From Candidatus Krumholzibacteriia bacterium (GTDB lineage: Bacteria > Krumholzibacteriota > Krumholzibacteriia > JAJRXK01): a stretch of DNA of 64,000 nt. The notes beneath the pieces are model-generated. The model was not told the origin of the DNA. It saw nothing but the letters and a program-made list of their open reading frames with translations, and did not search any database. The stretch is taken from the NCBI GenBank assembly GCA_035268685.1, contig DATFKK010000036.1, positions 5,510 through 69,509 of the forward strand. Reading direction: 5' to 3'. The position numbers and the translations under genes are program-made. Numbering within the stretch: the stretch's first letter is position 1; each line of letters starts with the position of its first letter. Shown here piece after piece: positions 27,063 to 49,754 of this stretch.

Positions 27063-29333
27063 CTAGCGCTCGAAACCGATCCGCAGCGTGTCCTGTTTCA
27101 GCCGTTTGGCCATCTGCTCGTACTGGGCCTCGGTCTCGGCCGTGACCGAGGGCACGGTCTCCTCGATCGCGGCGAGGAATTCCTCGTGGCCGACACGCTC
27201 GGCCCGTGGATCGGTACGAAGTGCCAGCATGCCGGCACGGGTGCACACGCCTGCGATGTCGGCCCCACTGAATCGTGCCGTACGGGTGGTCAGATCATCC
27301 AGGTCGACGTCGTCGCCGACGTGCATGCCACGCAGCTGCGCCTCGAAGATCTTGCGCCGTTGCTCGGCGTCGGGCATCGGAACGTAGACCATCTCGTCGA
27401 GTCGGCCGGGGCGCAGCAGAGCCGGATCGACCCGGTCGGGGCGGTTGGTCGCGCCGAGGATGCACACGCCCTGAAGTTCCTCGACACCGTCGAGCTCGCT
27501 GAGAATCTGGTTGACCACGCGCTCGGTCACCGCGGGCTCCCCCAAGGACCCGCCACGCACCGGCGCCAGCGAGTCGAGCTCGTCGAAGAAGATCACGGCT
27601 GGCGCCACGTGCCGCGCACGCTGGAAGAGCTCTGCGATCTTCTTCTCGGACTCGCCGTACCACTTCGACAGCAGCGAACTGCCGCGTGCGGCGAGGAAAT
27701 TCGCCCCCGCCTGGTTGGCGACGGCCTTCGCCACCAGCGTCTTGCCCGTGCCCGGCGGCCCGTACAACAGGATCCCCTTCGGCGCGCGAATCCCCAACCG
27801 CAGGAACGCACCCGGATCCTGCAGCGGCAGCTCGACCATCTCGCTCAGCGCCCGCTTGACGTTCTCGAGCCCGCCGACGTCCTCCCAGGTGACACGCGGG
27901 ATCTCCACCATGACCTCGCGCAGCGCCGAGGGCTGGATCTCCTTGAAGGCCTCGTCGACATCGGCGTTGGTCACCTCGAGCTGCTCGAGCTTCTCGCTCG
28001 GAATGGTGTTCTGCTCGAGATCGAGTTCGGGAAGCATCCGGCGCAGCGTCTCCACGGCGGACTCGCGGGCCAATGCGCTGAGATCCGACCCCGTGTAACC
28101 GTGGGTGCGGGCTGCGATCCCCTCGAGGTCGACGTCCTCGTGCAGAGGCATGCCGCGCGTGTGGATCTGCAGGATCTGGAATCGGCCGTCCTGGTCGGGA
28201 ATCCCGGCCACGATCTCACGATCGAAGCGACCCGGGCGACGCAGGGCCTCGTCGACCGCGTCGATGCGGTTCGTGGCCCCGATCACCACGACGTTGCGTC
28301 GAGCCTTCAGTCCGTCCATCAGCGTGAGCAGCTGGGCGACGATCCGGCGCTCGGTCTCCCCGCTCACGTCACCCCGTTTCGGGGCGATCGAGTCCAGTTC
28401 GTCGATGAAGATGATCGCCGGGGCGTTCTTCTCGGCCTCTTCGAAGACCTGCCGCAGTCGTTCCTCCGACTCGCCGTAATGCTTGCCCATGATCTCGGGC
28501 CCGTTGACGACGGCGAAGTAGGAATCGGTCTCGTGGGCGACGGCCCGGGCCAGCAGGGTCTTGCCGGTTCCGGGTGGGCCGTGCAGCAGAACGCCCAGCG
28601 GAGGTTCGATACCGAGACGGTCGAAGAGCTCGGGGTGCCGCAACGGAAGTTCGATCATCTCGCGGACCTTGGCCACGGCGTGGTCCAGTCCGCCGATGTC
28701 GTCGTAGGTGATGACGTGGCCCTCGTCCTCGCGCACCTCGGTGTACTCGGGCGCGAGTTCGATCTCGGTCTCCGGGGTGACGCGCACCACGCCGCGGGGC
28801 TTGGTCGAAACCACGGTCAGCCGGATCTCCATGAGACCGAAGGCCGGCGATTCGAAGAAGTCGCGGAAGAAGTCGTCCCGGTAGCCGTCGGTGCCCACGC
28901 TCTGCCGTGGTCGCCGGAACACGCTCGTCGACACCAGGTCGCCCGACAGCACGGGACGGTGTAACAGAGTGGGGCGTAGGGCCTCGCCCGTGCCGGCCAC
29001 ACGCAGCCCCTTCTGGGCGGGCGCCACGACCACACGGGCAGCCGGACTCCACTCGGCCTCACGGATCTCGACATGCTCACCGATGCCGACACCGACGTTG
29101 TGCCGAGTGAGACCGTCCAGTCGCACGATCTCGAGTCCCACGTCCTCCTGCTCGACCGGAACGACGGTGGCGGCCGTGAGATGCTTGCCCTCGACCTCGA
29201 CCACGTCCCCGCGCTCGAGGCCGAGTGCCCGCATGCTCTCGGGTCCCAATCGGACGATTCCCTTGCCGACGTCGTTCTGGCGCATCTCCGCGACCTTCAG
29301 ACGGATCGCGTTCTGCGTCTGCTGGGGGGACAT
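27063..29333 (-). CDS. CDC48/VCP-like AAA+ ATPase (N-domain + two AAA domains).
   Basis: Two Walker A motifs (GPPGTGKT twice), two Walker B motifs (IIFIDELD, VIFFDELD), second-region-of-homology Arg residues, and a CDC48-N-like double-psi barrel N-terminus. Confidence 0.9.
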   Translation of the reverse strand: MSPQQTQNAIRLKVAEMRQNDVGKGIVRLGPESMRALGLERGDVVEVEGKHLTAATVVPVEQEDVGLEIVRLDGLTRHNVGVGIGEHVEIREAEWSPAARVVVAPAQKGLRVAGTGEALRPTLLHRPVLSGDLVSTSVFRRPRQSVGTDGYRDDFFRDFFESPAFGLMEIRLTVVSTKPRGVVRVTPETEIELAPEYTEVREDEGHVITYDDIGGLDHAVAKVREMIELPLRHPELFDRLGIEPPLGVLLHGPPGTGKTLLARAVAHETDSYFAVVNGPEIMGKHYGESEERLRQVFEEAEKNAPAIIFIDELDSIAPKRGDVSGETERRIVAQLLTLMDGLKARRNVVVIGATNRIDAVDEALRRPGRFDREIVAGIPDQDGRFQILQIHTRGMPLHEDVDLEGIAARTHGYTGSDLSALARESAVETLRRMLPELDLEQNTIPSEKLEQLEVTNADVDEAFKEIQPSALREVMVEIPRVTWEDVGGLENVKRALSEMVELPLQDPGAFLRLGIRAPKGILLYGPPGTGKTLVAKAVANQAGANFLAARGSSLLSKWYGESEKKIAELFQRARHVAPAVIFFDELDSLAPVRGGSLGEPAVTERVVNQILSELDGVEELQGVCILGATNRPDRVDPALLRPGRLDEMVYVPMPDAEQRRKIFEAQLRGMHVGDDVDLDDLTTRTARFSGADIAGVCTRAGMLALRTDPRAERVGHEEFLAAIEETVPSVTAETEAQYEQMAKRLKQDTLRIGFER

Positions 29334-39246: not shown

Positions 39247-39699
39247 TCAGTCCTTCGCGTGGCAGTCGTTGCAACGCGTCGGCGCGGCGTAAGCCTCTTC
39301 GCCCGTGTCCATGTCCTTGTGGCAACCCACACAGCTGATGTGGTAGGCGTTCTTCTTGAGACTCATCGACGAGCAGTCGGGCACACCGTCCCCGGCGGGC
39401 TCGAAGTGGCACGACACGCAGGTCTCGACCTCGGTCTCGGCGACGTTCTCGAGCGTCAGGCCTTCGGTCGTGTGGTGGCAGGTGACGCAGTCGCTGACTT
39501 CGAAGTGGGCCGTGTGCGGGAACTCCACGAGCCCCTTCTTCTCGCCACAGCCGTCGAGGGTCATGACGTCCGGCAGACCGCCCTCTTCTTCTTCGGCAGC
39601 ATTGGCCGGCACGTAGGTCGCGCCCCAGACGAGGGCGAACACGGCGGCGACGGCGAGACATGCGAAAGCCGCGGTGCGGATACCTCTGGAATCGATCAT
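39247..39699 (-). CDS. Periplasmic tetraheme cytochrome c3 (class III).
   Basis: ATG 39699 with GGAGG 7 nt upstream. Signal MIDSRGIRTAAFACLAVAAVFALVWG. Four CXXCH motifs (CVTCHH, CVSCH, CVGCH, CNDCH) in about 120 mature residues plus a bis-His ligand motif FPHTAHF. Confidence 0.8.
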   Translation of the reverse strand: MIDSRGIRTAAFACLAVAAVFALVWGATYVPANAAEEEEGGLPDVMTLDGCGEKKGLVEFPHTAHFEVSDCVTCHHTTEGLTLENVAETEVETCVSCHFEPAGDGVPDCSSMSLKKNAYHISCVGCHKDMDTGEEAYAAPTRCNDCHAKD

Positions 39700-39916
39700 G
39701 GTTGGTTCCTCCGAGTTCGGAAAGAGGGTCGCGGGTGCGAGATGAAAACGGTGATCAAAATCTTCCCGACCAACGCCGCGATCCTCGTTGAGCCTACGCT
39801 CAGATCGTGAAATTCCTAGAGTGAGGCTGTACCGATTCGGTGATCCGCACGGAAGTGACACGGGAAGATTCCGACATAACGTCAGGATTCCGTGAAGTGC
39901 GCCCGGTCTCCGATCG

Positions 39917-41104
39917 TCACCGGAGTCGCGCCAGGATCGCGTCGGTGACCTGCTGGGTGGTCGCCGCGCCCCGTCCCACCACATCGGGGCCTCCCGGCAG
40001 ACGCATCATGTCGTAGGTGCGGACCCTGCCCTCGACCACGACGTCGCCGACGGCGCGGCGCACCGCCTCGGCCCGTCTGGTCTCGCCGACGTGGTCGAGC
40101 AGCATCGCCGCCGACAGGATCATGGCAATGGGATTCACGATGCTCGGCTCGAGCTCGGCGTACCGGGGCGCCGAACCGTGCGTGGGCTCGAACACCGCCA
40201 CGTCGTCGCCGATGTTCCCCGAACCCGCGAAGCCCAGCCCCCCCACCAGCCCGGCAAAGGCATCGCTGACGATGTCGCCGAAAAGGTTGCCGGCCACGAC
40301 CACCCCGTAGTCCTCGGGGTTCCGGGTCAGCCACATCATCTGCGCGTCGACGTTCGTACTCCGGAGCTCGATCTCGGGGAAGTCGGCGTGCACCTTCCCG
40401 GCTTCTTCCACCATCATGCCGCCGGTCTCGCGCAGCACGTTCGGCTTCTCGCACACGGTCACCGAGCGGTACCCGTGCTCACGCGCGTAGCCGAAGGCGG
40501 CGGTCAGGATCCGGCGCACGGCGCGGCGCGTGAACAGGCGAACGGAGACGGCCAGATCCTCTTCCGGTGTCTCGGCGAAGCGTCGCCAATTCGGATGCAG
40601 GGACAGGGCATCGCGCACCGCCTGCGGGGGATCGGTCCATTCGATGCCGGCGTACAGGCCCTCGGTGTTCTGACGGAAGATCACCACGTCGATCATGGGT
40701 TCGTCGATCGGCTCGGCACTCCCGCGGCGGACGAAGTTCAGTGGATTGCCGGCGAAGCTACGGCACGGGCGGATGCAGACGTCGAGGTCGAAGTGCTGCC
40801 GCAGGCCGACGATCGGACTGGAGTAGTCGAAGCCGTGGTCGCGCAGATCCGCGTCGAGATCCTCGGCGGCTTCCTTCTTCGGTTTGCTCGTGATCGCACC
40901 GAAGAGGCCGAGCCGGTGGCGTTCCAGGAGAGCGATCGTCGCGTCGGGCAGCGGATCGCCGGTGCGCCTCCAGCACTCCCAGCCGATGTCGGCGTGGAGG
41001 TAGTCGGCGTCGAAGCCCACTTTCTCGAGGACGCGGACCGCTTCGGGCAGGACGATGGCACCGATCCCGTCCCCGGGCATGGTGACGACGGTGTGCCTGG
41101 CCAT
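39917..41104 (-). CDS. Isocitrate/isopropylmalate dehydrogenase family protein (LeuB- or homoisocitrate-DH-like).
   Basis: Trimmed to MARHTVVTMPGDGIGAIV (41104, with GAGGAGG upstream). Family motifs include the Rossmann-like N-terminus GDGIG and the metal/substrate motif GNLFGDIVSDAFAGLVGGLG. Confidence 0.85.
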   Translation of the reverse strand: MARHTVVTMPGDGIGAIVLPEAVRVLEKVGFDADYLHADIGWECWRRTGDPLPDATIALLERHRLGLFGAITSKPKKEAAEDLDADLRDHGFDYSSPIVGLRQHFDLDVCIRPCRSFAGNPLNFVRRGSAEPIDEPMIDVVIFRQNTEGLYAGIEWTDPPQAVRDALSLHPNWRRFAETPEEDLAVSVRLFTRRAVRRILTAAFGYAREHGYRSVTVCEKPNVLRETGGMMVEEAGKVHADFPEIELRSTNVDAQMMWLTRNPEDYGVVVAGNLFGDIVSDAFAGLVGGLGFAGSGNIGDDVAVFEPTHGSAPRYAELEPSIVNPIAMILSAAMLLDHVGETRRAEAVRRAVGDVVVEGRVRTYDMMRLPGGPDVVGRGAATTQQVTDAILARLR

Positions 41105-41121
41105 GACCGCGAACCTCCTCG

Positions 41122-43074
41122 TCAGAACTTCAGTTCGCGCCGGATCATGGATTCGATTCCTCCCGCTGCCACCAGCGACTGGGGAAGCTCGCCCATCGGT
41201 GGGAAGGGATACTCGCGACCGTCGTAGCGGACGACGCCGGCCACGAAGTCGACGGTCACCGTCGCCGGGGCGACGACGGTGCGGAGGTCCTGTGCGGAGC
41301 GCACCGAGCGGATGGACTCGACGAACTCGGGGCACGTGATGCAGGGAAGGCCGTTGTTGTACGCGTTGCGCAGGAAGGTCTGCGCAAAGCTCCCAGCGAT
41401 GACCAACCGGATCCCGGCTGCGGTGAGTGCGGTGGCGGCCTGTTCGCGGCTGCTGCCGGTGCCGAAGCCGAATCCACCGACCAGGACGTCGCCCTCGCGA
41501 ACGATCGAGGCGAAGTCGGGGTCGTGGTTCTCCAGGACCACACGGGCCATCTCCCCGGCGCTCAGGTCACGGTAGGTGTGGTCCTTTCCGTACATGGCGT
41601 CGGTGTCGAGGTCGTCGGCGGGCACGACGATCGCACGACCCTCGATGCGCTCGGGAAAGCCCTCGAGGATCTCGACCGGTTCGACGAGCGCGGCGTCGGT
41701 CTCCACACCGCATTCGAACCGGGCCGTCGCCACCGGCCCCTCGGTCCGCACGCCCGACGGCGCGGTGATCTCGCCCTCGAGCGCCGAGGCCGCCACGACG
41801 GCGGGACCGGCCAGAAAGGCCCTCGCGTCGCGCGAACCCATGCGTCCTGGAAAATTGCGATTGGTCGCGCTGATCGCGACCTCGCCCGGCTCGAGCGATC
41901 CCTCGCCCAGACCGATGCACGGCCCACAACCCGGCGGCAACGCGTGGGCGCCCGCGTCGAGCAGCGTCTGCCAGGTCCCGTCGGCCTCGGCCGCCGCCTG
42001 CACGTCGGCACTCGCGGCCGCCACGTAGAACGACACCCCGTCGTGCACGTGACGCCCCCTCAGAACACGTGCCGCGGCCTGCAGGTCCTCGAGCCTCCCG
42101 TTCACGCAACCCAGCAGATAGGCCTTGTCGATCTTCGTGTGTCGCGCACCGACCTCGGCCACCGTGGCCAGGGCGCGGACGCTGTCGGGACCTGCGACCA
42201 CGGGCCGCAGGGTCGAGAGATCGAACTCGATGCGACCGGCGTAGACCGCATCGGGGTCGGCAGCCGGAGGGTCGGTGGACCAGTGCATCAGATCGGCCTC
42301 GCAGAAACGCTGTTCCCCACACGCGGCCAGGGCGTTGCGCACTCGACGCATGTGGTCGACGGTCACCTCGTCCACGGGGAAGATTCCCGCCAGCCCACCC
42401 CACTCGGTGGTCATGTTGGCGATGCTCAGCCGCGCGTCCATGCCGAGCGAGGCGACGCCGTCGCCGGTGAACTCGACGACCGCGTTCAGCACCTCACCGG
42501 CCGCGAACATGCCGCACAGGGCCAGGATCACGTCCTTGCCCGCCACTCCCGTGGCCAGTTCTCCACGAAGTTCCACCCGCAGGGTCCGCGGCACCTGCCA
42601 CCAGAACGTACCGGTGCTCCAGACCGCCGCGGCGTCGGTGCGGACGATCGGCGTGCCCAGAGCACCCAGTGCACCGTACGTGGTGGCGTGGGAATCGCTG
42701 GCCACACACAACGATCCCGGAACCACGTAGCCGCGCGACACCATGATCTGATGGCCGATGCCGGTGCCGGCGGGGTAGAAGTCCACGCCGTGGCCGCGCG
42801 CGAAGCCCTCGATCGAAGCGTACCTGCGCTGGTTGGCCTCGCTGCGGTTCTGGACGTCGTGGTCGAGCGCGAACACGGGCTGGGTCGGGTCGTGGATCCT
42901 GCCCACGCCGATCGCACGGAACTTCTCGATGACCGCGGCCGTGTTGTCGTGGGTGAGGACGTGCCGGGGACACAGACCGACGACGTCGCCGGCACGGATC
43001 CGGCGCCGCGGTCCGCGCGTCATGTGCGCCTGGACGATCTTCTCGGCCAGGGTCTGGCCGCCGACGGTGTTCAC
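41122..43074 (-). CDS. Aconitase-family dehydratase with fused large (LeuC-like) and small (LeuD-like) subunits.
   Basis: N-terminal roughly 420 aa carry the LeuC Fe-S ligand region (ASDSHATTYGALGALG, CGPCIG). The C-terminal roughly 190 aa are LeuD-like (swivel domain, GGFGFGTGSSREQAATAL). Start reassigned from the track TTG (43092) to GTG at 43074, overlapping the upstream gene's TGA (GTGA). Confidence 0.85.
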   Translation of the reverse strand: MNTVGGQTLAEKIVQAHMTRGPRRRIRAGDVVGLCPRHVLTHDNTAAVIEKFRAIGVGRIHDPTQPVFALDHDVQNRSEANQRRYASIEGFARGHGVDFYPAGTGIGHQIMVSRGYVVPGSLCVASDSHATTYGALGALGTPIVRTDAAAVWSTGTFWWQVPRTLRVELRGELATGVAGKDVILALCGMFAAGEVLNAVVEFTGDGVASLGMDARLSIANMTTEWGGLAGIFPVDEVTVDHMRRVRNALAACGEQRFCEADLMHWSTDPPAADPDAVYAGRIEFDLSTLRPVVAGPDSVRALATVAEVGARHTKIDKAYLLGCVNGRLEDLQAAARVLRGRHVHDGVSFYVAAASADVQAAAEADGTWQTLLDAGAHALPPGCGPCIGLGEGSLEPGEVAISATNRNFPGRMGSRDARAFLAGPAVVAASALEGEITAPSGVRTEGPVATARFECGVETDAALVEPVEILEGFPERIEGRAIVVPADDLDTDAMYGKDHTYRDLSAGEMARVVLENHDPDFASIVREGDVLVGGFGFGTGSSREQAATALTAAGIRLVIAGSFAQTFLRNAYNNGLPCITCPEFVESIRSVRSAQDLRTVVAPATVTVDFVAGVVRYDGREYPFPPMGELPQSLVAAGGIESMIRRELKF

Positions 43075-44450
43075 GACCGGTCCCTCTGACAAAGGGACAT
43101 GAAGTTCCGCGCCGAGCCGAAGTCGTCGAGCATCCAGACCGTCTCCTTCACTCGCTTCCGGGCGATCTCACTGAGGACGGGATCGGACAGGGCGTCGAAC
43201 TTGGCCTCGATCTCGTGATCGCTCAGGGGATTGCGAGGATCACCCTTCGGGTGGTCCAGCTTCTCGGAGAACTCGCGCCCGTCCTTGGTCCGGATCCTCA
43301 CGACCGCCTGCTGGAGCTCGGGGAACACGGCCTCGACGTCGGGATCGGGCATGACCTCCACCTTGCCCAGCTGCGCCCGCAACACCGGATCGGCGATCCT
43401 CTCGGGCGTGAACTGCGCCGGGGTGACGTTCCGGTCCACGAGGACGGCTGCGATCACGTAGGGCAACGAGTGGTCGGCCGTCTCCTTGCTCTGCGGATCG
43501 TACTTGCTGGGATCGGCGAGGATGTCCGCGGCGCGCGCCGTCGTTCGGACCAGAACGCTCTCGATCTCGTCGGGTGCGAGATCGTTGTCGCGGACGATGT
43601 CGAGCGTGGCCGAGATCGGCGCGTGGGTGAGCGCCTCGGTCGGAAAGGCCTTCATGCCACATCGTTCGATCCGCCAGGTCTCGCCCAGTCCGTCGGTCAG
43701 CACGTCGAGATCCCACTCCGGTCCCAGGCAGTGCACCAACCCCTCCTTGCCGTCGATCACGTGCCGCGGGCCGGTGTACCCCCGCTCGGCCAGCAGCGCG
43801 GCCGTCATTCCCGACTGGGTGGCCATCGGGTCGACCGAATTCTTCGTCATGGTCAGTTCGCCCGCCGTGACCGCTCCGAAGGTCGCGTTGTGCGACGCCG
43901 CGATGCCGATGGCGTGCTGGATGCGCTCGGTGTCGAGTCCCAGCAACCGGCCCGCTACGATCGGGGAGACGACGGCCGTCAGGGTGGCGTGGTGCCAACC
44001 GCGTTCCCTGATCCCGGGAAAGGCGGCCTCGGCCAGCCGCATCTCGAACTCGTGACCCAGCACCACTCCCAGCAGCAGATCGCGTGCATCGAGGTCCTGA
44101 CGTTCGCAGGCGGCCATGGCGGCCGGGATCACGTCGCTCGGATGCACCGGATCCTGCCGCCAGTAGATGTCGTTGTAGTCCATGGAACGGATCATCAACG
44201 CGTTCGCGAGTGTGGCCGACACGGGATCGGCCTTCTCGCCACTGGCCAGGACGGTGCACTCACCGGTGCCCGCGCACTCGGCGAGCACATCCAATGCGAT
44301 CCCGCAGTCCTCCTGCAGGAATCCACCGAACGCGCACCCCACCGAATCCAGGAGGAAGCGCTTGGCCTGGTGCAGGACCTCGGGTGGAATGTCGTCGAAG
44401 CGCAGGCCGGCAGCCCACCGGGCCATGGTCGCGGTGACGGTGTCGGACAT
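43071..44450 (-). CDS. MmgE/PrpD family protein (2-methylcitrate dehydratase-like).
   Basis: Trimmed to MSDTVTATMARWAAGLRFDDIPPEVLHQAKRFLLDSVGCAFGG, the typical PrpD N-terminus, with GGAAGG upstream. 459 aa. Confidence 0.85.
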   Translation of the reverse strand: MSDTVTATMARWAAGLRFDDIPPEVLHQAKRFLLDSVGCAFGGFLQEDCGIALDVLAECAGTGECTVLASGEKADPVSATLANALMIRSMDYNDIYWRQDPVHPSDVIPAAMAACERQDLDARDLLLGVVLGHEFEMRLAEAAFPGIRERGWHHATLTAVVSPIVAGRLLGLDTERIQHAIGIAASHNATFGAVTAGELTMTKNSVDPMATQSGMTAALLAERGYTGPRHVIDGKEGLVHCLGPEWDLDVLTDGLGETWRIERCGMKAFPTEALTHAPISATLDIVRDNDLAPDEIESVLVRTTARAADILADPSKYDPQSKETADHSLPYVIAAVLVDRNVTPAQFTPERIADPVLRAQLGKVEVMPDPDVEAVFPELQQAVVRIRTKDGREFSEKLDHPKGDPRNPLSDHEIEAKFDALSDPVLSEIARKRVKETVWMLDDFGSARNFMSLCQRDRS

Positions 44451-44730
44451 TGCGAACCCTTCCGTCCGGAACGCGGCCGGACGTACGCAGAGGAGCCGGA
44501 CACGGAGGCGATCGCCACGACGCCCCCGGTCCGTCGGATTCGGAGATGAGACCCAGCGTGGCACCGCCACCACCACGGTCGACAGCGTGGAACTGTGAGA
44601 ACCGCGCAGGCCGTCGGGCCGAAAATGTGAGCTCGCGCGTCGCCGTGATGCACGTGCACCGGGCAGGCAGAGCGGAGGGACGATCCGACCGGGTCCCTCC
44701 GCCCCGGGGGGCACACGTACGGGGAGTACG

Positions 44731-45921
44731 CTAGAACGCAGCCGTGAAGCCGACGACCGCGCGTGTCTCCTCGATCTCGAGGTCGTAGGTCAGCTCGGCG
44801 ATCATCCGCAGATTCCGGGCGTGCAGATGCGACCACGACGCGGTCACCGTCTCGTAGTCGGTGGCGTCGTCGTCGGAGTCGATCCAGTTGTACAAGAGGA
44901 CGACGGCATCCATGCCGTCGGGACCGGCCGGCATGATCGTCAGTTCGCCGATCACGCCGTCGGTCTCGATCTCCGATCCCGAGCCCGTGGCGTCGCTGTC
45001 GGTTCGATGCAGGTATTGCACGCTCGCCGAGACCTTGTCGAAGCCCACGTGCACGTCGGGACCGAAGACTTCGACATCGTTCTCGAAGCCGGTACCGCTC
45101 GCGCTCAGGGCCTCGGTCGTGGCGTAGTAGGTTCCGGCCGCGGTGACCGGACCCGCCGCGTAGACCAGGCGCCCGAGGTAGCCCTTGTCTGGGTCACGAT
45201 CGAAGAAGTCGTCTCCTCCGTCTTCCGCGGCGGCCAGGCCGTTGCCGTTGACCACCTCACCCACGAGGGACAGACCGATCGGCGTGTCGTAGGTGACCAG
45301 CACTCCACGATCGTAGGTGAGCCGTGCGACCGATCCTCCGGGTTGCGCCTTGTAGATCTCGTAGTCCTCGAAGGTCAGGCGCAGCTCGCGCTTCATCATG
45401 GGGTCGGAGATCTGGAACTGACCGACCATCACGTCGAGAGGTTGCCCCCCGAGATCGTTGAAGTGCAGGTAGGCGTCTTCCACCCCGGCGACCTCGCCCT
45501 CCTCGGCCATGTAGAAGTAGACGTAGTAGCCCACGTCGTCCATCACACTGCCACCACTCAGGAGCTTGATACCCCACGGAACCTGCAGATCGGGGACGTT
45601 CTCGTCGTCCTCCCGTGTCTCGTAGACGCCGTAGGCGTCCAGACGCACGGCCAGGGGCAGGTCGCGTTGGAGCAACAACTCCGGGTCGCCCGTGTCCTGG
45701 TAGGCTCGACGTGGTTCCTCGCCGTCGGGAAGACGGAAGCCGTTGCCGGCGAACTCGTCACCGTAGTCCTTCAGACGCGGAGCCGGCGCGTGGCACGTCG
45801 TACACGAGAGATTGTACTTGCGGGCGAAGGCGGGTATCGCGTTCGCCTCGGACACGAAGGTACTCACGAGCACCAGTGCCGCGATCATCGGGAACACAAG
45901 GTTCTTCGTCGTCTTCATCAC
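44731..45921 (-). CDS. Cyc2-like fused monoheme cytochrome c - outer-membrane beta-barrel porin.
   Basis: Signal (LVFPMIAALVLVSTFVSEANA), then a single heme motif CTTCH at about residue 42 in the context PAFARKYNLSCTTCH. The roughly 350-aa remainder has alternating amphipathic beta-strands and a C-terminal aromatic residue (VGFTAAF), the defining architecture of Cyc2 iron oxidases. Its start overlaps the upstream cytochrome gene's stop. Confidence 0.65.
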   Translation of the reverse strand: MMKTTKNLVFPMIAALVLVSTFVSEANAIPAFARKYNLSCTTCHAPAPRLKDYGDEFAGNGFRLPDGEEPRRAYQDTGDPELLLQRDLPLAVRLDAYGVYETREDDENVPDLQVPWGIKLLSGGSVMDDVGYYVYFYMAEEGEVAGVEDAYLHFNDLGGQPLDVMVGQFQISDPMMKRELRLTFEDYEIYKAQPGGSVARLTYDRGVLVTYDTPIGLSLVGEVVNGNGLAAAEDGGDDFFDRDPDKGYLGRLVYAAGPVTAAGTYYATTEALSASGTGFENDVEVFGPDVHVGFDKVSASVQYLHRTDSDATGSGSEIETDGVIGELTIMPAGPDGMDAVVLLYNWIDSDDDATDYETVTASWSHLHARNLRMIAELTYDLEIEETRAVVGFTAAF

Positions 45922-47333
45922 CAGTTCACCACCTCGACGGAAGTATCGGCTTCGCCGACGACGACGGCCTCGGTCTCCTCTGCGGGGACGTCGAGGAAGT
46001 CACCGACGGACTTCACGAGTTTGCGATAGCGGAGCACGGCCTCGAACCGCAGCTCCCCGTAGGGCACGTCCTGCGGGACCGTGAACAGATAGGTTTCGGT
46101 CTTGGTCTCTCGGGGCGCGATCCGGTAGTCGGTCCCCAGGCTCGCCGTGTTCCACTGCATGATGGTGCGGCGACCCTGCTCGTCGAAGTAGGGCAGGCAG
46201 AAGATCCGGTCGCCTTCGTAGGCCGTGGAGTCCCGGGGCAGGCCGGCGAAGTCCGGATCGTCCAGAGGTTCGCCCATGTCCTGGTAGGCCAGCTCGTTGC
46301 TGGTGATGGTCTGCTCCTCGCCCTCGAAGCCCTTCTTCTCGACCGGGAGGTGATACCGATTGCCATCGGCGTCGACGGCGTGGACGGTCACCCACAGCTG
46401 TCGCTCCTCGGCCGAGCCCGAAGGCACCTTGTGCCCGGCCTTGCCGTTGAACAGCGCCAGCTTCAGGGTCACCGGATCGCCGGGAAGACACTCAGGATGC
46501 TCGGTCCACATGACCATCTCGACCACACCGGCGAGCTTGCTCTGGTGATGGGCACCGTGGAAGAGGTGGTTCCGCCGATCGTCGACCACCTCGGCCCCCA
46601 TGATCGCGAGGCGCCCGTGCCCCGGCGGCATGTGGCAGTCGTGACAGGTGATCCCCATGTCCGGGTACGGACCCTCGGCGTACTCGAGCTGTGTGCTCTT
46701 CACCCAGACGTCGTAGGGACTCTTCTCGTTGTGGCAGGTCCCGCAGAACTCCGCACTCTGGATGAACTCGCTCTTGGCGGTGAGGTGGTGCGGCGACTCC
46801 ATGCCCTCGCGCCCGCCCCACTTCGTGCGACCGGGCTTCACGAGGTAGTTGTAGTTGTGGGGAACCTCTCCGGCGAAACCCACGACCTGATGGCACATGT
46901 CACAGTTCACGGCCTCGTCGGCCATGCTCCCCTCACCGGGCCGCGGCGGCGGGGTGTCGCCCGCGAGGAACGAGACGGGCGCGTGGCAGCCGTTGCAGCC
47001 GTGCTTCACCTCGGCCACCTTCTCCTTCCGCTCGGCGTGGGGTACGGCGAGCCGGAAGTATTCGATCTCGTCCCAGTGGTGCGTGTAGGCCTGGCTCATG
47101 AGCGAGCGGCGCCACTGCCCGGCGATGTCCAGATGACAGCCGGTGCACTGCTGGGCAGGTTGGAAGTCGTCGTAGGAGAACTGACCGTGGGCGTCGTCCC
47201 CGGAGGGGATCGCCCGGAGTTCCTCCTCGGGCAGGACCCCCGTCACGGGCTGGGCGAGAACCGGACAGGTCAGGAGCAGAACGAGGAATCCCGCTACGCA
47301 CGAGGCGAAGCGGGAGATCGCGGGGATGGGCAT
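45918..47333 (-). CDS. Periplasmic pentaheme c-type cytochrome.
   Basis: Trimmed to MPIPAISRFASCVAGFLVLLLTCPVLAQP (47333, with GGAGG upstream). Five CXXCH motifs: CTGCH, CNGCH, CDMCH, CGTCH, CHDCH. Confidence 0.8.
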   Translation of the reverse strand: MPIPAISRFASCVAGFLVLLLTCPVLAQPVTGVLPEEELRAIPSGDDAHGQFSYDDFQPAQQCTGCHLDIAGQWRRSLMSQAYTHHWDEIEYFRLAVPHAERKEKVAEVKHGCNGCHAPVSFLAGDTPPPRPGEGSMADEAVNCDMCHQVVGFAGEVPHNYNYLVKPGRTKWGGREGMESPHHLTAKSEFIQSAEFCGTCHNEKSPYDVWVKSTQLEYAEGPYPDMGITCHDCHMPPGHGRLAIMGAEVVDDRRNHLFHGAHHQSKLAGVVEMVMWTEHPECLPGDPVTLKLALFNGKAGHKVPSGSAEERQLWVTVHAVDADGNRYHLPVEKKGFEGEEQTITSNELAYQDMGEPLDDPDFAGLPRDSTAYEGDRIFCLPYFDEQGRRTIMQWNTASLGTDYRIAPRETKTETYLFTVPQDVPYGELRFEAVLRYRKLVKSVGDFLDVPAEETEAVVVGEADTSVEVVNW

Positions 47334-47509
47334 GAGTCCTCCGATATGTCGAGCACCCACCGGAATGGGCGCCGGATCGCGCGACGCGGAAGCCTGGTCG
47401 AGGACAGGTGGCTCCCGGCGTCACGCTCTCGATTCACTGCGCGAGGCATTCCATCTATACCAGCCTCGGCCGATCGAACCCATGATGCATGTGGATCAGA
47501 TCGGTGGGA

Positions 47510-47998
47510 TCACTCGCTCTCGCCGAGACGATGATCACGTAGATGCTCGAGCTCCTCGGGGCCGAAGTACGCCGCACTGAACTCCGAGATCAGCTCGTCG
47601 AGCTTCTCGGTGTGCGCCGTTTCCGTGGTCTGCTTCGACTTCATGGCGTGCACGAGCATCTCGTGAAGCAGTGTGAGCTGCTTCACGTAGTCCGAGTCGT
47701 CGGCACCGGCCGGCTTGATCCGCTGGTGCAGGAAGTACTGGCTGACGATGTGCTGGAACTCGACGGCGTGCTGTTCCTTGTTGGTGATCCAGCGCACGAT
47801 CTGATTGTAGTTCTTGTCGCCCTCGGCGGTCAGGGCGTCGATCTGGTTCATGGCTTTCTCGATCGTGGTCACGTGCTCGCGCAGCATCTCGATGCGCATG
47901 GCGTCGCCGTAGATCCCGCACGGGATCTCGCAGTGGGCGCGCACGGTGGCGGGAGCGAGAAGGACGAGCAACAGGGCGGCGCTCAGGGCACGGCGCAT
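47510..47998 (-). CDS. sodN: Nickel superoxide dismutase with a Sec-type signal peptide (periplasmic).
   Basis: MRRALSAALLLVLLAPATVRA | HCEIPCGIYGDA. The Ni-hook motif H-C-x-x-P-C-G-x-Y directly follows a predicted AxA signal-peptidase site, so His1 becomes the N-terminus. The rest is a four-helix-bundle-length (about 140 aa) sequence. Confidence 0.85.
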   Translation of the reverse strand: MRRALSAALLLVLLAPATVRAHCEIPCGIYGDAMRIEMLREHVTTIEKAMNQIDALTAEGDKNYNQIVRWITNKEQHAVEFQHIVSQYFLHQRIKPAGADDSDYVKQLTLLHEMLVHAMKSKQTTETAHTEKLDELISEFSAAYFGPEELEHLRDHRLGESE

Positions 47999-48687: not shown

Positions 48688-48983
48688 CGCGTGTCTCCAT
48701 CGCGGCGGGAAAGCATCCGGAATCCACTGCGAGAGCAAAGCATAGCGGACGCGCCGACGACACGCCGGAATCGTGAGATCACCGTTCCACTCCGGACCGG
48801 AAAGGGGAGCGTCTCGGGGAATCCCCCACCCCACCCACGAGTGCGTCCCAGGGCTCCCGCCACCGTCCACCGGGACGTCATCGCGACCGGCCGGACGCAA
48901 ACTGTGGAACGTTCCGCGGCCGGACCCCGGCCATGATCCACGTGAATCCGCCCGGTGACCCGGACGCGTGCCAGGAGGCCTCG

Positions 48984-49754
48984 ATGATCCGCACCATGCT
49001 CGAACTCACGGACTTCGAACTCCGAGCTGCCGACGGCCCCCTGGGCCCGCTGCAGGACCTGTACTTCGAAGATGTGGAGTGGGTCGTTCGTTACCTCACC
49101 GCCGACGTCTCGGCATGGTTGCCCGGACTGACCGTCCTGCTGGCTCCTTCTGCACTCGACTCCGTCGACCGTGAACACCGCACCATGCGGACCCGCTTCG
49201 ATCGGCGGCAGATGCAGAACAGCCCGACGGCGATCGAGGACGACGCGGTCTCGAAGCGCAACATGGAACACGTGGGGGATCCCACCTGGCAGCCCTTCTG
49301 GTTGACGACCTCGAGCCAGCTCGGTGCCACCGCGCCGATCACCCCGCTGCGGTCCGGGGTCTCCGGGGAGAAGACCGGCGAGACCGGGAGCGGCGCCGAC
49401 CTGCGGAGCGCGCAGGAACTGCTGGGGTACGCCGTCGAATGCGAAGGACAGCGGGTCGGAAGAGTGTCGGATCTCGCCTACGACGACGAGACCTGGAAGA
49501 TCCAGTACCTCGTGGTGGACACCGTGGCCCCGGCCGAGGAACGCCGGATCCTGATTGCCCCGGACTGGACGGAAGCGATCGACTGGGTCGAGCCGGTGGT
49601 CCGCCTGGACCTCGACTGCGAAGCAGTGGGCCGGGCACCGGGCTTCGAGGCCTCCACCCGCGTCGACGAGGCGTACCGCCGTCGGCTGCTCGAACACTAC
49701 GGACGCACCGCGTCCCGACTCCACGAAACCCGACCCGCGGAGGGATCGCCATGA
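48984..49754 (+). CDS. PRC-barrel domain protein (two PRC-like beta-barrel repeats).
   Basis: Start taken at MIRTMLELTDFELRAADGPLGPLQDLYFED. The same pattern recurs as LLGYAVECEGQRVGRVSDLAYDDETWKIQYLVVD. Confidence 0.55.
   Translation: MIRTMLELTDFELRAADGPLGPLQDLYFEDVEWVVRYLTADVSAWLPGLTVLLAPSALDSVDREHRTMRTRFDRRQMQNSPTAIEDDAVSKRNMEHVGDPTWQPFWLTTSSQLGATAPITPLRSGVSGEKTGETGSGADLRSAQELLGYAVECEGQRVGRVSDLAYDDETWKIQYLVVDTVAPAEERRILIAPDWTEAIDWVEPVVRLDLDCEAVGRAPGFEASTRVDEAYRRRLLEHYGRTASRLHETRPAEGSP

What the first reader, a model, noticed from the sequence alone, without database searches (positions are those of the whole stretch)
44731..47998. Candidate outer-membrane electron-transfer module: periplasmic NiSOD, pentaheme cytochrome c and a Cyc2-like cytochrome-porin fusion
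Three consecutive minus-strand genes encode a Sec-exported nickel SOD (47510..47998), a periplasmic cytochrome c with five CXXCH motifs (45918..47333), and a 396-aa protein (44731..45921) with a signal peptide, a single CXXCH (CTTCH) about 40 residues in, then a beta-barrel body ending in an aromatic residue. The last two genes overlap at stop/start. The final protein has the architecture of Cyc2, the fused cytochrome-porin that oxidises Fe(II) at the cell surface in Acidithiobacillus and Zetaproteobacteria. The motif around the heme site (PAFARKY..SC..CH) resembles what I recall as conserved in Cyc2. A partner periplasmic multiheme cytochrome would complete a porin-cytochrome conduit, and an adjacent periplasmic SOD would fit ROS produced by Fe(II)/O2 chemistry. 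Such a module in a high-GC, probably Gemmatimonadota-like genome would be unusual.
Basis: partly seen in the sequence, partly recalled or inferred. Interest (0 to 1): 0.8.

Follow-up and report, generated by a model that had tools for sequence, protein, structure and literature searches.

The report
Cyc2-type cytochrome-porin with pentaheme partner
Two overlapping genes encode an outer-membrane pore carrying one heme and a five-heme periplasmic partner; the pore type is already used as an iron-oxidation marker, but its fixed pairing with this partner, seen in hundreds of uncultured bacteria, seems not to have been described.

Summary
The three minus-strand genes are real and at the stated coordinates. 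The 396-aa protein meets every sequence and fold criterion published for Cyc2 that could be tested here. It has a signal peptide, one CXXCH, the AxPxFAR[K/Q][Y/T] and PxL motifs, and a 16-strand barrel whose closest solved fold is OprP. FeGenie HMM scoring and tree placement could not be run.

The two genes form a fixed cassette. The partner was present in 79 of 79 genome loci with room, and in 76 of 76 metagenome loci found from the pentaheme side. No other neighbour is conserved. More distant Cyc2 relatives lack the partner.

The NiSOD is adjacent only in two near-identical relatives, so that link is incidental. The host is labelled Krumholzibacteria, not Gemmatimonadota. Cyc2 homologs in these phyla are already published.

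Verdict: a Cyc2-family member in a distinct, apparently undescribed two-component form. It is probably an outer-membrane electron conduit. Its direction and substrate are unproven.

The parts
44731..45921 (-). Cyc2-family fused monoheme cytochrome-porin. 396 aa from the GTG at 45921; more likely 395 aa from the ATG at 45918. The stop codon is 44731-44733.
   Evidence: ORF and junction. No Pfam or NCBIfam family matched. More than 3,239 homologs were found. A profile search found 3,465 representative clusters at E<=1e-3.
45838..45921 (-). Sec-type signal peptide (residues 1-28, MMKTTKNLVFPMIAALVLVSTFVSEANA), with predicted cleavage before IPAFARKY.
   Evidence: Read directly from the sequence. 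The A-x-A | IPAFAR junction is conserved in the 120 closest homologs. No signal-peptide predictor was run.
45775..45840 (-). Cytochrome motif AIPAFARKY-NLS-CTTCH-APA-PRL (residues 28-49). The CXXCH itself lies at 45790-45804.
   Evidence: It matches the AXPXFAR[Q/K][T/Y] and PXL motifs that Keffer et al. 2021 give as defining Cyc2. It is invariant or nearly so in 120 homologs. It aligns with Methylocystis, Caballeronia and Ralstonia Cyc2-like proteins and with distant representatives.
44734..45651 (-). 16-strand beta-barrel porin domain (residues 91-396), ending in Phe.
45918..47333 (-). Periplasmic pentaheme c-type cytochrome (471 aa), the dedicated partner of the cytochrome-porin. Its stop codon overlaps the start of the porin gene.
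   Evidence: ORF and start codon. Five CXXCH motifs at fixed spacing in 120 homologs. A homolog lies directly upstream of the porin gene in 79 of 80 genome loci. The porin gene lies downstream in 76 of 80 metagenome loci, and the other 4 are cut short.
46530..47249 (-). Helical five-heme domain of the pentaheme protein (about residues 29-268). It is preceded by a signal-peptidase-I type leader at 47250-47333.
   Evidence: Model with pLDDT 89. Five further invariant His residues (four of them in this domain, the fifth, H301, in the Ig-like domain) and no extra conserved Cys in a 50-sequence alignment. No conserved lipobox. Weak Pfam matches to Cytochrom_NNT and Cytochrome_C554.
45921..46529 (-). 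C-terminal Ig-like beta-sandwich domain of the pentaheme protein (about residues 269-471), with the conserved loop N-x-K-A-G-H-K-x-P-S-G-S.
47510..47998 (-). Nickel superoxide dismutase with a Sec-like leader. It is a neighbour here, not part of the conserved module.
   Evidence: Pfam Sod_Ni 1.5e-31. It is adjacent to the pair only in L001 and L002.
39247..39705 (-). Tetraheme class III cytochrome c with a signal peptide. It is a possible loosely linked periplasmic carrier; the evidence is weak.
   Evidence: Pfam Cytochrom_CIII 5.1e-13. Homologs lie within 6 kb of the pair in L001, L002, L008, L014 and L022 only.

Best explanation
The two overlapping genes encode a self-contained, two-protein electron conduit across the outer membrane.

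The downstream product is a member of the Cyc2 family. It is a 16-strand porin whose short N-terminal extension carries a single c-type heme.

The upstream product is a soluble periplasmic cytochrome. It has a five-heme helical domain and an Ig-like domain, the fold of T. tepidum cytochrome c552.

Inferred mechanism: a small dissolved redox species, most probably iron, exchanges an electron with the heme held at or in the pore. The electron then passes to or from the five-heme chain of the partner. The partner links to the periplasmic and inner-membrane respiratory chain.

By homology with the three Cyc2-family proteins that have been tested, the most likely direction is inward, that is Fe(II) oxidation. 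The partner's hemes are probably all bis-His ligated, so the conduit could plausibly run either way.

Shown here: family membership by motif and fold, the fold of the partner, and the obligate gene pairing. Inferred only: the physical complex, the substrate and the direction.
For: Cyc2 identity:
- The motif AIPAFARKY-x3-CTTCH-x3-PRL is the published Cyc2-defining motif.
- The protein is 396 aa, above the 365-aa threshold.
- hhalign against proteobacterial Cyc2-like proteins that sit next to c-type cytochrome genes (one also next to a HiPIP gene) gives probability 98%, E 2.7e-13.
- The N-terminal motif aligns across distant family representatives.
- MAGs from the same studies as loci L017, L035, L044 and L033, L050 were reported to carry Cyc2 homologs, mostly cluster III.

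Partner:
- Five CXXCH motifs at fixed spacing and a signal-peptidase-I type leader in 120 homologs.
- Five additional invariant His residues.

Coupling:
- The stop and start codons overlap in the window.
- The partner lies upstream in 79 of 80 genome loci; the exception has only 19 nt of contig upstream.
- The median intergenic gap is 13 nt, and 61 of 79 gaps are 30 nt or less.
- Searching from the pentaheme side, 76 of 80 metagenome loci have the porin gene downstream, and the other 4 have no room.
- No other neighbour is conserved.
- Pairwise identity matrices of the two proteins correlate, r 0.70, Mantel 0 of 999.
Against: - There is no functional evidence for this clade.
- Cluster 3 Cyc2 is the least certain cluster. 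It also occurs in iron reducers such as Geobacter.
- The hosts are mostly heterotrophs. Some lineages carrying the pair belong to groups with known Fe(III) reducers, such as Melioribacteraceae and Ignavibacteria.
- The high-potential carriers typical of Fe(II) oxidation systems (Cyc1, rusticyanin, HiPIP) and terminal oxidase genes are not linked to the pair.
- Fur and FNR boxes are not enriched upstream of 142 pentaheme genes.
- The heme-bearing N-terminal segment is modelled with low confidence (pLDDT below 50 for residues 25-61), so the position of the heme relative to the pore is not established.
Confidence: 0.5

Rival explanations
1. The architecture is the same but the flow is outward. 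The pair is a minimal six-heme conduit that exports respiratory electrons from the periplasm to soluble or chelated Fe(III), humic quinones or another small acceptor at the pore. A variant of this idea is reductive iron uptake, where Fe(III) is reduced at the pore and Fe2+ passes inward.
For: - The partner has five extra invariant His residues and no conserved Met or Cys ligand set, which suggests bis-His hemes.
- Its structural homolog 5ze8 is, as I recall from the original paper, a low-potential cytochrome.
- Carriers include lineages with known Fe(III) reducers, and many sediment anaerobes and heterotrophs.
- FeGenie itself lists cluster 3 Cyc2 as 'possible iron reduction', and Geobacter and Rhodoferax iron reducers carry it.
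- No terminal oxidase or high-potential carrier is linked to the pair.
Against: - Every Cyc2-family protein tested so far oxidises Fe(II).
- Bis-His multiheme cytochromes such as MtoA and PioA also work in the uptake direction (established knowledge), so ligation does not fix the direction.
- The heme potentials are unknown.
Confidence: 0.28
2. The pentaheme protein is a periplasmic enzyme like MccSep/ExtKL, a polysulfide or selenite reductase, and the barrel mainly admits its small anionic substrate. The porin heme would be incidental or only a relay.
For: - It shares the five-heme cap plus Ig-like stem architecture of MccSep.
- It gives a weak NCBIfam ExtKL hit of 44 bits over residues 151-345.
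- The closest solved fold of the barrel is the anion-selective OprP.
- The MccSep authors state that the route of polysulfide across the outer membrane is unknown.
Against: - The two residues that define MccSep catalysis, the heme-ligating Cys239 and the Sec/Cys325, have no conserved counterpart. A 50-sequence alignment has no invariant Cys outside the five CXXCH motifs, and five invariant His residues fill the ligand count.
- The NCBIfam score is far below the cutoff of 250.
- The porin heme motif is invariant, so it is under selection and not incidental.
Confidence: 0.07
3. One reading: NiSOD, pentaheme cytochrome and Cyc2 act together, with the SOD removing superoxide made by Fe(II)/O2 chemistry at the conduit.
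For: - The genes lie on the same strand, and the NiSOD gene ends 176 nt before the pentaheme gene starts.
- The NiSOD has a Sec-like leader, so it is probably periplasmic.
- The arrangement is kept in L001 and L002.
Against: - No NiSOD homolog was found in the other 79 genome loci.
- L001 and L002 are 91-99% identical relatives, so they add no independent support.
- No neighbour beyond the pair is conserved.
- Exported NiSODs occur independently of this module.
Confidence: 0.05
4. The protein is an ordinary porin with a chance CXXCH.
For: - No Pfam or NCBIfam family matched.
- The porin domain resembles general porins.
Against: - CXXCH and about 20 flanking residues are invariant or nearly so in 120 homologs down to 44% identity and across distant representatives.
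- The gene is always paired with a multiheme cytochrome gene.
Confidence: 0.01

Closest known systems
Cyc2 fused cytochrome-porins: Acidithiobacillus ferrooxidans Cyc2, Mariprofundus ferrooxydans PV-1 Cyc2, Leptospirillum Cyt572; clusters 1-3 of McAllister 2020 and Keffer 2021
   Same: - Signal peptide, then a single N-terminal CXXCH.
- AXPXFAR[Q/K][T/Y] before the heme site and PXL after it.
- A barrel of about 16 strands with an OprP/OprO-like fold.
- Length of about 400 aa and a C-terminal Phe.
   Different: - The canonical systems are encoded next to mono- or diheme class I cytochromes (Cyc1) and oxidase or rusticyanin genes. The proteobacterial relatives examined here sit next to c-type cytochrome genes, and the Caballeronia one also next to a HiPIP gene.
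- This clade is always preceded by a 450-aa pentaheme cytochrome with an Ig-like domain.
- It occurs mainly in FCB-group heterotrophs.
- Fe(II) oxidase activity has not been tested.
Thermochromatium tepidum pentaheme cytochrome c552 (PDB 5ZE8)
   Same: - Sequence profile E 5.8e-14.
- A soluble exported protein.
   Different: - Only distant sequence similarity.
- As far as I know, the function of c552 is itself unknown.
- Whether its gene has a porin neighbour could not be checked here.
MccSep / ExtKL of Geobacter sulfurreducens (GSU2937-2936), a pentaheme selenoprotein polysulfide reductase (bioRxiv 10.1101/2025.11.18.688581)
   Same: - Five CxxCH motifs in an alpha-helical cap and a C-terminal Ig-like stem; periplasmic.
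- Weak NCBIfam hit.
- Encoded in the extHIJKL cluster. The presence of an outer-membrane barrel gene (extI) there is from my own knowledge of Jimenez Otero 2018 and was not read here.
   Different: - No conserved equivalent of the heme-ligating Cys239 or of Sec/Cys325.
- The score is far below the family cutoff (44 against 250 bits).
- The partner barrel here carries its own heme.
Porin-cytochrome complexes: MtrCAB, MtoAB/PioAB, Geobacter Pcc
   Same: - The operon logic: a periplasmic multiheme cytochrome gene next to an outer-membrane barrel gene.
- The presumed trans-outer-membrane electron transfer.
   Different: - Those barrels have 20-26 strands, carry no heme, and sheathe an inserted 8-10-heme cytochrome. 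Many also have an extracellular lipoprotein cytochrome.
- The partner has five hemes and no lipobox.
- No third cytochrome gene is conserved next to the pair.

Membership tests
Cyc2 fused cytochrome-porin family (criteria of Keffer et al. 2021 and FeGenie) | N-terminal signal peptide | tested here: met
   The leader has a basic n-region, a hydrophobic core and A-N-A before IPAFARKY. The same junction is present in the 120 closest homologs. This was judged by inspection; no predictor was run.
Cyc2 fused cytochrome-porin family (criteria of Keffer et al. 2021 and FeGenie) | Exactly one CXXCH heme-binding motif, near the N terminus | tested here: met
   CTTCH at residues 40-44. There is one motif in each of 120 homologs.
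Cyc2 fused cytochrome-porin family (criteria of Keffer et al. 2021 and FeGenie) | AXPXFAR[Q/K][T/Y] motif just upstream of CXXCH (stated to be unique to Cyc2) | tested here: met
   AIPAFARKY, three residues before CTTCH. The spacing is the same in Methylocystis, Caballeronia and Ralstonia Cyc2-like proteins.
Cyc2 fused cytochrome-porin family (criteria of Keffer et al. 2021 and FeGenie) | PXL motif 4 residues downstream of CXXCH | tested here: met
   CTTCH-APA-PRL. P48 is invariant and L50 nearly so.
Cyc2 fused cytochrome-porin family (criteria of Keffer et al. 2021 and FeGenie) | Length of at least 365 aa | tested here: met
   396 aa, or 395 aa from the ATG.
Cyc2 fused cytochrome-porin family (criteria of Keffer et al. 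2021 and FeGenie) | C-terminal beta-barrel porin of about 16 strands, structurally like OprO/OprP | tested here: met
   [not shown]
Cyc2 fused cytochrome-porin family (criteria of Keffer et al. 2021 and FeGenie) | Score above cutoff with a FeGenie Cyc2 cluster HMM, and placement in the Cyc2 reference tree | not testable with these tools
Indirect evidence: hhalign probability 98% to proteobacterial Cyc2-like proteins. Published studies whose MAGs supplied loci L017, L035, L044 and L033, L050 report Cyc2 homologs in these phyla, mostly cluster III.
Cyc2 fused cytochrome-porin family (criteria of Keffer et al. 2021 and FeGenie) | Fe(II) oxidase activity | not testable with these tools
   This requires biochemistry or genetics.
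MccSep / ExtKL multiheme (seleno)protein family | Five conserved CxxCH motifs and a C-terminal Ig-like domain | tested here: met
MccSep / ExtKL multiheme (seleno)protein family | Strictly conserved Cys as the distal ligand of heme 2 (C239) | tested here: not met
   A 50-sequence alignment has no invariant or nearly invariant Cys outside the five CXXCH motifs. MccSep itself could not be aligned directly.
MccSep / ExtKL multiheme (seleno)protein family | Conserved Sec or Cys catalytic residue in the Ig-like domain loop (U325) | tested here: not met
   There is no conserved Cys and no in-frame TGA. The conserved loop in the Ig-like domain is G-H-K-x-P-S-G-S, with H301 invariant.
MccSep / ExtKL multiheme (seleno)protein family | NCBIfam NF040886 score above the curated cutoff | tested here: not met
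   44.4 bits against a cutoff of 250.
MtrAB / Pcc type porin-cytochrome complex | A heme-free barrel of 20-26 strands that sheathes a periplasmic cytochrome of 8 or more hemes | tested here: not met
   The barrel has 16 strands and carries its own heme. The partner has 5 hemes.
Nickel superoxide dismutase (SodN) | Sod_Ni domain with the N-terminal Ni-hook H-C-x-x-P-C-G-x-Y exposed after leader cleavage | tested here: met
   Pfam 1.5e-31. HCEIPCGIY follows VRA directly. The NCBIfam sodN score of 42.7 is below the equivalog cutoff of 90, so it is a divergent member.

The most novel reading that the evidence does not exclude
The pentaheme-coupled clade is not an Fe(II) oxidase. It is instead a previously unrecognised minimal six-heme, two-protein outer-membrane conduit. 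With it, FCB-group heterotrophs would send electrons outward to soluble Fe(III) chelates, humics or another small acceptor, or would reduce Fe(III) at the pore for iron uptake. If so, 'cyc2' hits in these phyla are being misread as iron-oxidation potential in metagenomic surveys.
Probability: 0.3. Interest if true: 0.7.

Novelty: new variant of a known kind. Interest (0 to 1): 0.5.

Why it matters
Cyc2 hits are the main marker used to infer iron-oxidation potential from metagenomes. Most hits in sediment and subsurface heterotrophs (Krumholzibacteriota, Latescibacterota, KSB1, Zixibacteria, Calditrichota, Ignavibacteria, Gemmatimonadota) fall in the functionally uncertain cluster 3.

This clade always travels with one specific pentaheme cytochrome, while more distant Cyc2 relatives do not. 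That gives a concrete, separable subtype to test. It also identifies the likely periplasmic electron partner, which is usually unknown for Cyc2. Cultured carriers such as Rosettibacter primus offer a place to establish the direction and substrate.

The result also gives a candidate role to the T. tepidum c552-type pentaheme fold, whose function is open.

Tried and rejected
- Pfam and NCBIfam gave no family for the cytochrome-porin.
- A sequence search of the PDB with it gave only noise.
- The afdb50 fold library, which would have shown UniProt Cyc2 entries, was unavailable.
- No reference Cyc2 sequences (PV-1, A. ferrooxidans, Cyt572) could be obtained. The supplements of Keffer 2021 hold no sequences. 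Cluster placement therefore rests on publications and on proteobacterial Cyc2-like genes recovered from plasmid records.
- A look-up of names for distant representatives gave only 'hypothetical protein'.
- A search for conserved neighbours beyond the pair found none. The tetraheme c3 gene is nearby in only 5 loci.
- Fur-box and FNR/CRP-box searches upstream of 142 pentaheme genes showed no enrichment over shuffles, and the commonest 8-mers were only A/T runs.
- H153 was considered as a family-wide distal heme ligand and rejected. It is specific to the subfamily.
- The promoter and terminator scan between sodN and the pentaheme gene was uninformative.
- The Melioribacter roseus multi-omics paper does not mention the pair.
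- Literature searches for 'Cyc2' with 'pentaheme' found no description of the pairing.

Full report
**Observation.** The ORF list shows three consecutive minus-strand ORFs at the stated coordinates.
- 44731-45921 encodes a 396-aa protein.
- 45918-47360 encodes a multiheme protein.
- 47510-47998 encodes a 162-aa protein.

The junction reads TGGTGATGAAG. The pentaheme stop TGA therefore overlaps the next gene's ATG by 1 nt, or its GTG by 4 nt. The pentaheme protein has five CXXCH motifs.

The 396-aa protein has a Sec-type leader ending ANA, then IPAFARKY-NLS-CTTCH-APA-PRL, and it ends in Phe. The third protein is a nickel SOD (Pfam Sod_Ni 1.5e-31). Its Ni-hook HCEIPCGIY lies directly after a hydrophobic leader.

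**The cytochrome-porin.** Pfam and NCBIfam have no model for it. The protein database holds more than 3,239 relatives. All 120 closest relatives, down to 44% identity, keep exactly one CXXCH and the surrounding residues.

Keffer et al. 2021 (PMC8406198) define Cyc2 by these features:
- a signal peptide;
- one CXXCH;
- an AXPXFAR[Q/K][T/Y] motif upstream, which they state is unique to Cyc2;
- a PXL motif four residues downstream;
- a length of at least 365 aa;
- a 16-strand porin resembling OprO/OprP.

Reference Cyc2 sequences were not obtainable, so I recovered proteobacterial Cyc2-like genes from plasmid records (Methylocystis, Caballeronia, Ralstonia). The Methylocystis and Caballeronia genes are followed by c-type cytochrome genes, and the Caballeronia gene is also preceded by a HiPIP gene. 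No annotation was available for the Ralstonia region. This resembles the classical cyc2-cyc1 context.

A profile-profile comparison with them gives probability 98% and E 2.7e-13 over residues 1-132. A joint alignment shows the same spacing of every motif element, including in distant representatives.

A full HMMER scan of 1.84 billion representatives finds 3,465 clusters at E<=1e-3 and 180 at E<=1e-30.

**The partner.** The upstream protein has five heme motifs at fixed spacing in 109 of 120 homologs. The other 11 have only four CXXCH; ten of these carry a CX3CH in place of the first motif and one is N-terminally truncated. The leader is of the signal-peptidase-I type, with no conserved lipobox. 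It is therefore probably a soluble periplasmic protein.

A 50-sequence alignment shows five further invariant His residues and no conserved Cys outside the heme motifs. This fits five bis-His hemes.

The same architecture, a five-heme cap plus an Ig-like stem, was recently described for MccSep/ExtKL. That protein is the selenoprotein polysulfide reductase of Geobacter (bioRxiv 10.1101/2025.11.18.688581). NCBIfam gives a weak ExtKL hit of 44 bits against a cutoff of 250. MccSep is defined by a heme-ligating Cys and a Sec/Cys in the Ig-like domain, and neither is conserved here. The protein belongs to the same fold class but is not an MccSep. It looks like an electron carrier rather than that enzyme.

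**The pairing.** The 80 loci kept come from Krumholzibacteriota, Latescibacterota, KSB1, Zixibacteria, Calditrichota, Ignavibacteria/Melioribacteraceae (including the cultured Rosettibacter primus), Gemmatimonadota, Eisenbacteria, Fibrobacteraceae-labelled MAGs and Bacteroidota.
- In 79 of 80 loci a homolog of the pentaheme gene lies upstream. The exception has only 19 nt of contig before the gene.
- The median gap is 13 nt. In 61 of 79 loci it is 30 nt or less. In one locus it is 3.1 kb.
- Starting instead from the pentaheme protein in metagenome contigs, 76 of 80 loci have the cytochrome-porin gene directly downstream. The other four contigs end too soon.
- Clustering all flanking ORFs found no other gene shared by more than about 10 loci. 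A tetraheme class III cytochrome, present in the window at 39247-39705, lies within 6 kb in five loci.
- Pairwise identity matrices of the two proteins over 64 genomes correlate, r 0.70, Mantel 0 of 999. This fits inheritance as a unit, although shared species phylogeny alone would also produce it.
- Six more distant family members, scoring 145-271 bits against the profile, lack the pentaheme gene. The pairing therefore marks a clade, not the whole Cyc2 family.

**NiSOD.** Homologs of the SOD, the HD-domain protein and the PrpD-like protein flank the pair only in L001 and L002. These are 91-99% identical relatives. NiSODs with Sec leaders ending just before His1 are already known (PMC12537917). 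The SOD is a neighbour and not a conserved component.

**Host and prior knowledge.** A CDC48-type ATPase in the window is 100% identical to a protein named from a Candidatus Krumholzibacteria MAG.

Cyc2 homologs have been reported in these groups:
- Krumholzibacteria (PMC7914226);
- Ignavibacteriaceae and Bacteroidetes (PMC6344600);
- Zixibacteria, Ignavibacteriales, Gemmatimonadota and Latescibacterota MAGs of the DeMMO site, mostly as Cyc2_repCluster3 (PMC8478452);
- Calditrichota, Eisenbacteria, Gemmatimonadota, Krumholzibacteriota, KSB1 and Bacteroidota of a hydrothermal chimney, with 75% of the homologs in cluster III (PMC9769843).

Several of my loci come from MAGs of those studies (L017, L035, L044; L033, L050). 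I could not confirm gene-for-gene identity with the reported hits.

The Cyc2 authors call cluster 3 function the most uncertain. [quoted passage not shown] I found no paper that describes the fixed pairing with this pentaheme cytochrome. The searchable library is incomplete.

**Mechanism.** Three things are shown here: Cyc2-family membership by motif and fold, the c552/MccSep-type fold of the partner, and obligate operonic pairing.

The rest is inferred. The two proteins would form a conduit in which a dissolved redox species exchanges an electron with the single heme at the pore. The five-heme chain would carry that electron to or from the respiratory chain.

Direction remains open.
- For Fe(II) oxidation: all tested family members are Fe(II) oxidases.
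- For outward flow: the partner's hemes are probably bis-His. The hosts are mostly heterotrophs, some from lineages that include Fe(III) reducers. No high-potential carrier or oxidase is linked to the pair.
- Neutral: no Fur or FNR box enrichment was found upstream.

I put about 0.5 on an iron-exchanging conduit with inward flow as the default. I put about 0.28 on outward flow, 0.07 on a catalytic MccSep-like role, and 0.05 on a real functional tie to the SOD.

**Novelty and interest.** The cytochrome-porin itself is a new member of a known and already surveyed family. The fixed two-component form with a c552-type pentaheme partner appears to be an undescribed variant. It is widespread and can be tested in cultured carriers. 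Interest is moderate at 0.5. It refines a widely used metagenomic marker and names a likely periplasmic partner, but it does not establish a new kind of system.

Noticed in passing
window 47510-47998 (-): The nickel SOD leader looks like a Sec (possibly Tat-like, MRRAL...) signal ending VRA just before the Ni-hook His1, and no SodX-type peptidase gene was seen in the genes examined next to it. This implies maturation by signal peptidase and a periplasmic location. Such exported NiSODs are already reported (PMC12537917).
   Followed up: partly
window 39247-39705 (-); L008 104-427, L014 784-1101, L022 1612-1998: A tetraheme class III (c3-type) cytochrome with a signal peptide lies between an isocitrate/isopropylmalate-dehydrogenase-like gene and an RND efflux operon. 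Homologs lie within 6 kb of the pentaheme/Cyc2 pair in three other loci (two labelled Krumholzibacteria, one an unclassified bacterium), which hints at a loose association.
   Followed up: partly
window 39917-44714 (-): Directly downstream of the pair lies a trio of genes: MmgE/PrpD-family dehydratase, aconitase-family protein and Iso_dh-family dehydrogenase. It looks like a tricarboxylate-type pathway module of unassigned specificity. The PrpD-like gene, the only one of the three tested, is found next to the pair only in close relatives.
   Followed up: no
window 27066-29333 (-): A bacterial CDC48-family double-AAA ATPase is 100% identical to a protein of a Candidatus Krumholzibacteria MAG. 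This gives the taxonomic label of the window.
   Followed up: yes
window 48933-49754 (+): A 273-aa protein gives a weak PRC-barrel match and a weak NCBIfam match to reaction-centre subunit H (PuhA, 28.7 bits against a cutoff of 200). It is probably just a PRC-barrel domain protein, not evidence of phototrophy.
   Followed up: no
L083 3070-4278 (Caballeronia sp. SBC1 plasmid pSBC1_3, WP_206366205.1): The RefSeq CDS annotated 'cytochrome C' starts after the heme motif. The in-frame upstream extension encodes the signal peptide and LPAFARQTGLACVACH, so the annotated start is probably too far downstream and drops the Cyc2 heme site.
   Followed up: partly
P0178, P0187, P0199, P0210, P0221, P0222, P0230, P0231, P0238, P0239 (pentaheme homologs): In ten of 120 homologs the first heme motif is CX3CH instead of CXXCH, at the same position. 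An eleventh homolog with only four motifs (P0142, 394 aa) is N-terminally truncated.
   Followed up: no
L165, L167, L169, L170, L171: More distant Cyc2-family genes (P0376, P0396, P0297, P0308, P0337) keep the PxFAR...CxxCH...PxL motif but have unrelated neighbours and no pentaheme gene. P0308 is preceded by an unannotated 152-aa ORF. P0376 sits near YHS and DUF411 (copper-related) genes.
   Followed up: partly
window 44731-45921, residue H153 (strand EDAYLHFND): A nearly invariant His in the barrel wall is specific to the pentaheme-coupled clade and absent from other Cyc2 relatives. It is a candidate clade-specific heme ligand or partner contact.
   Followed up: partly
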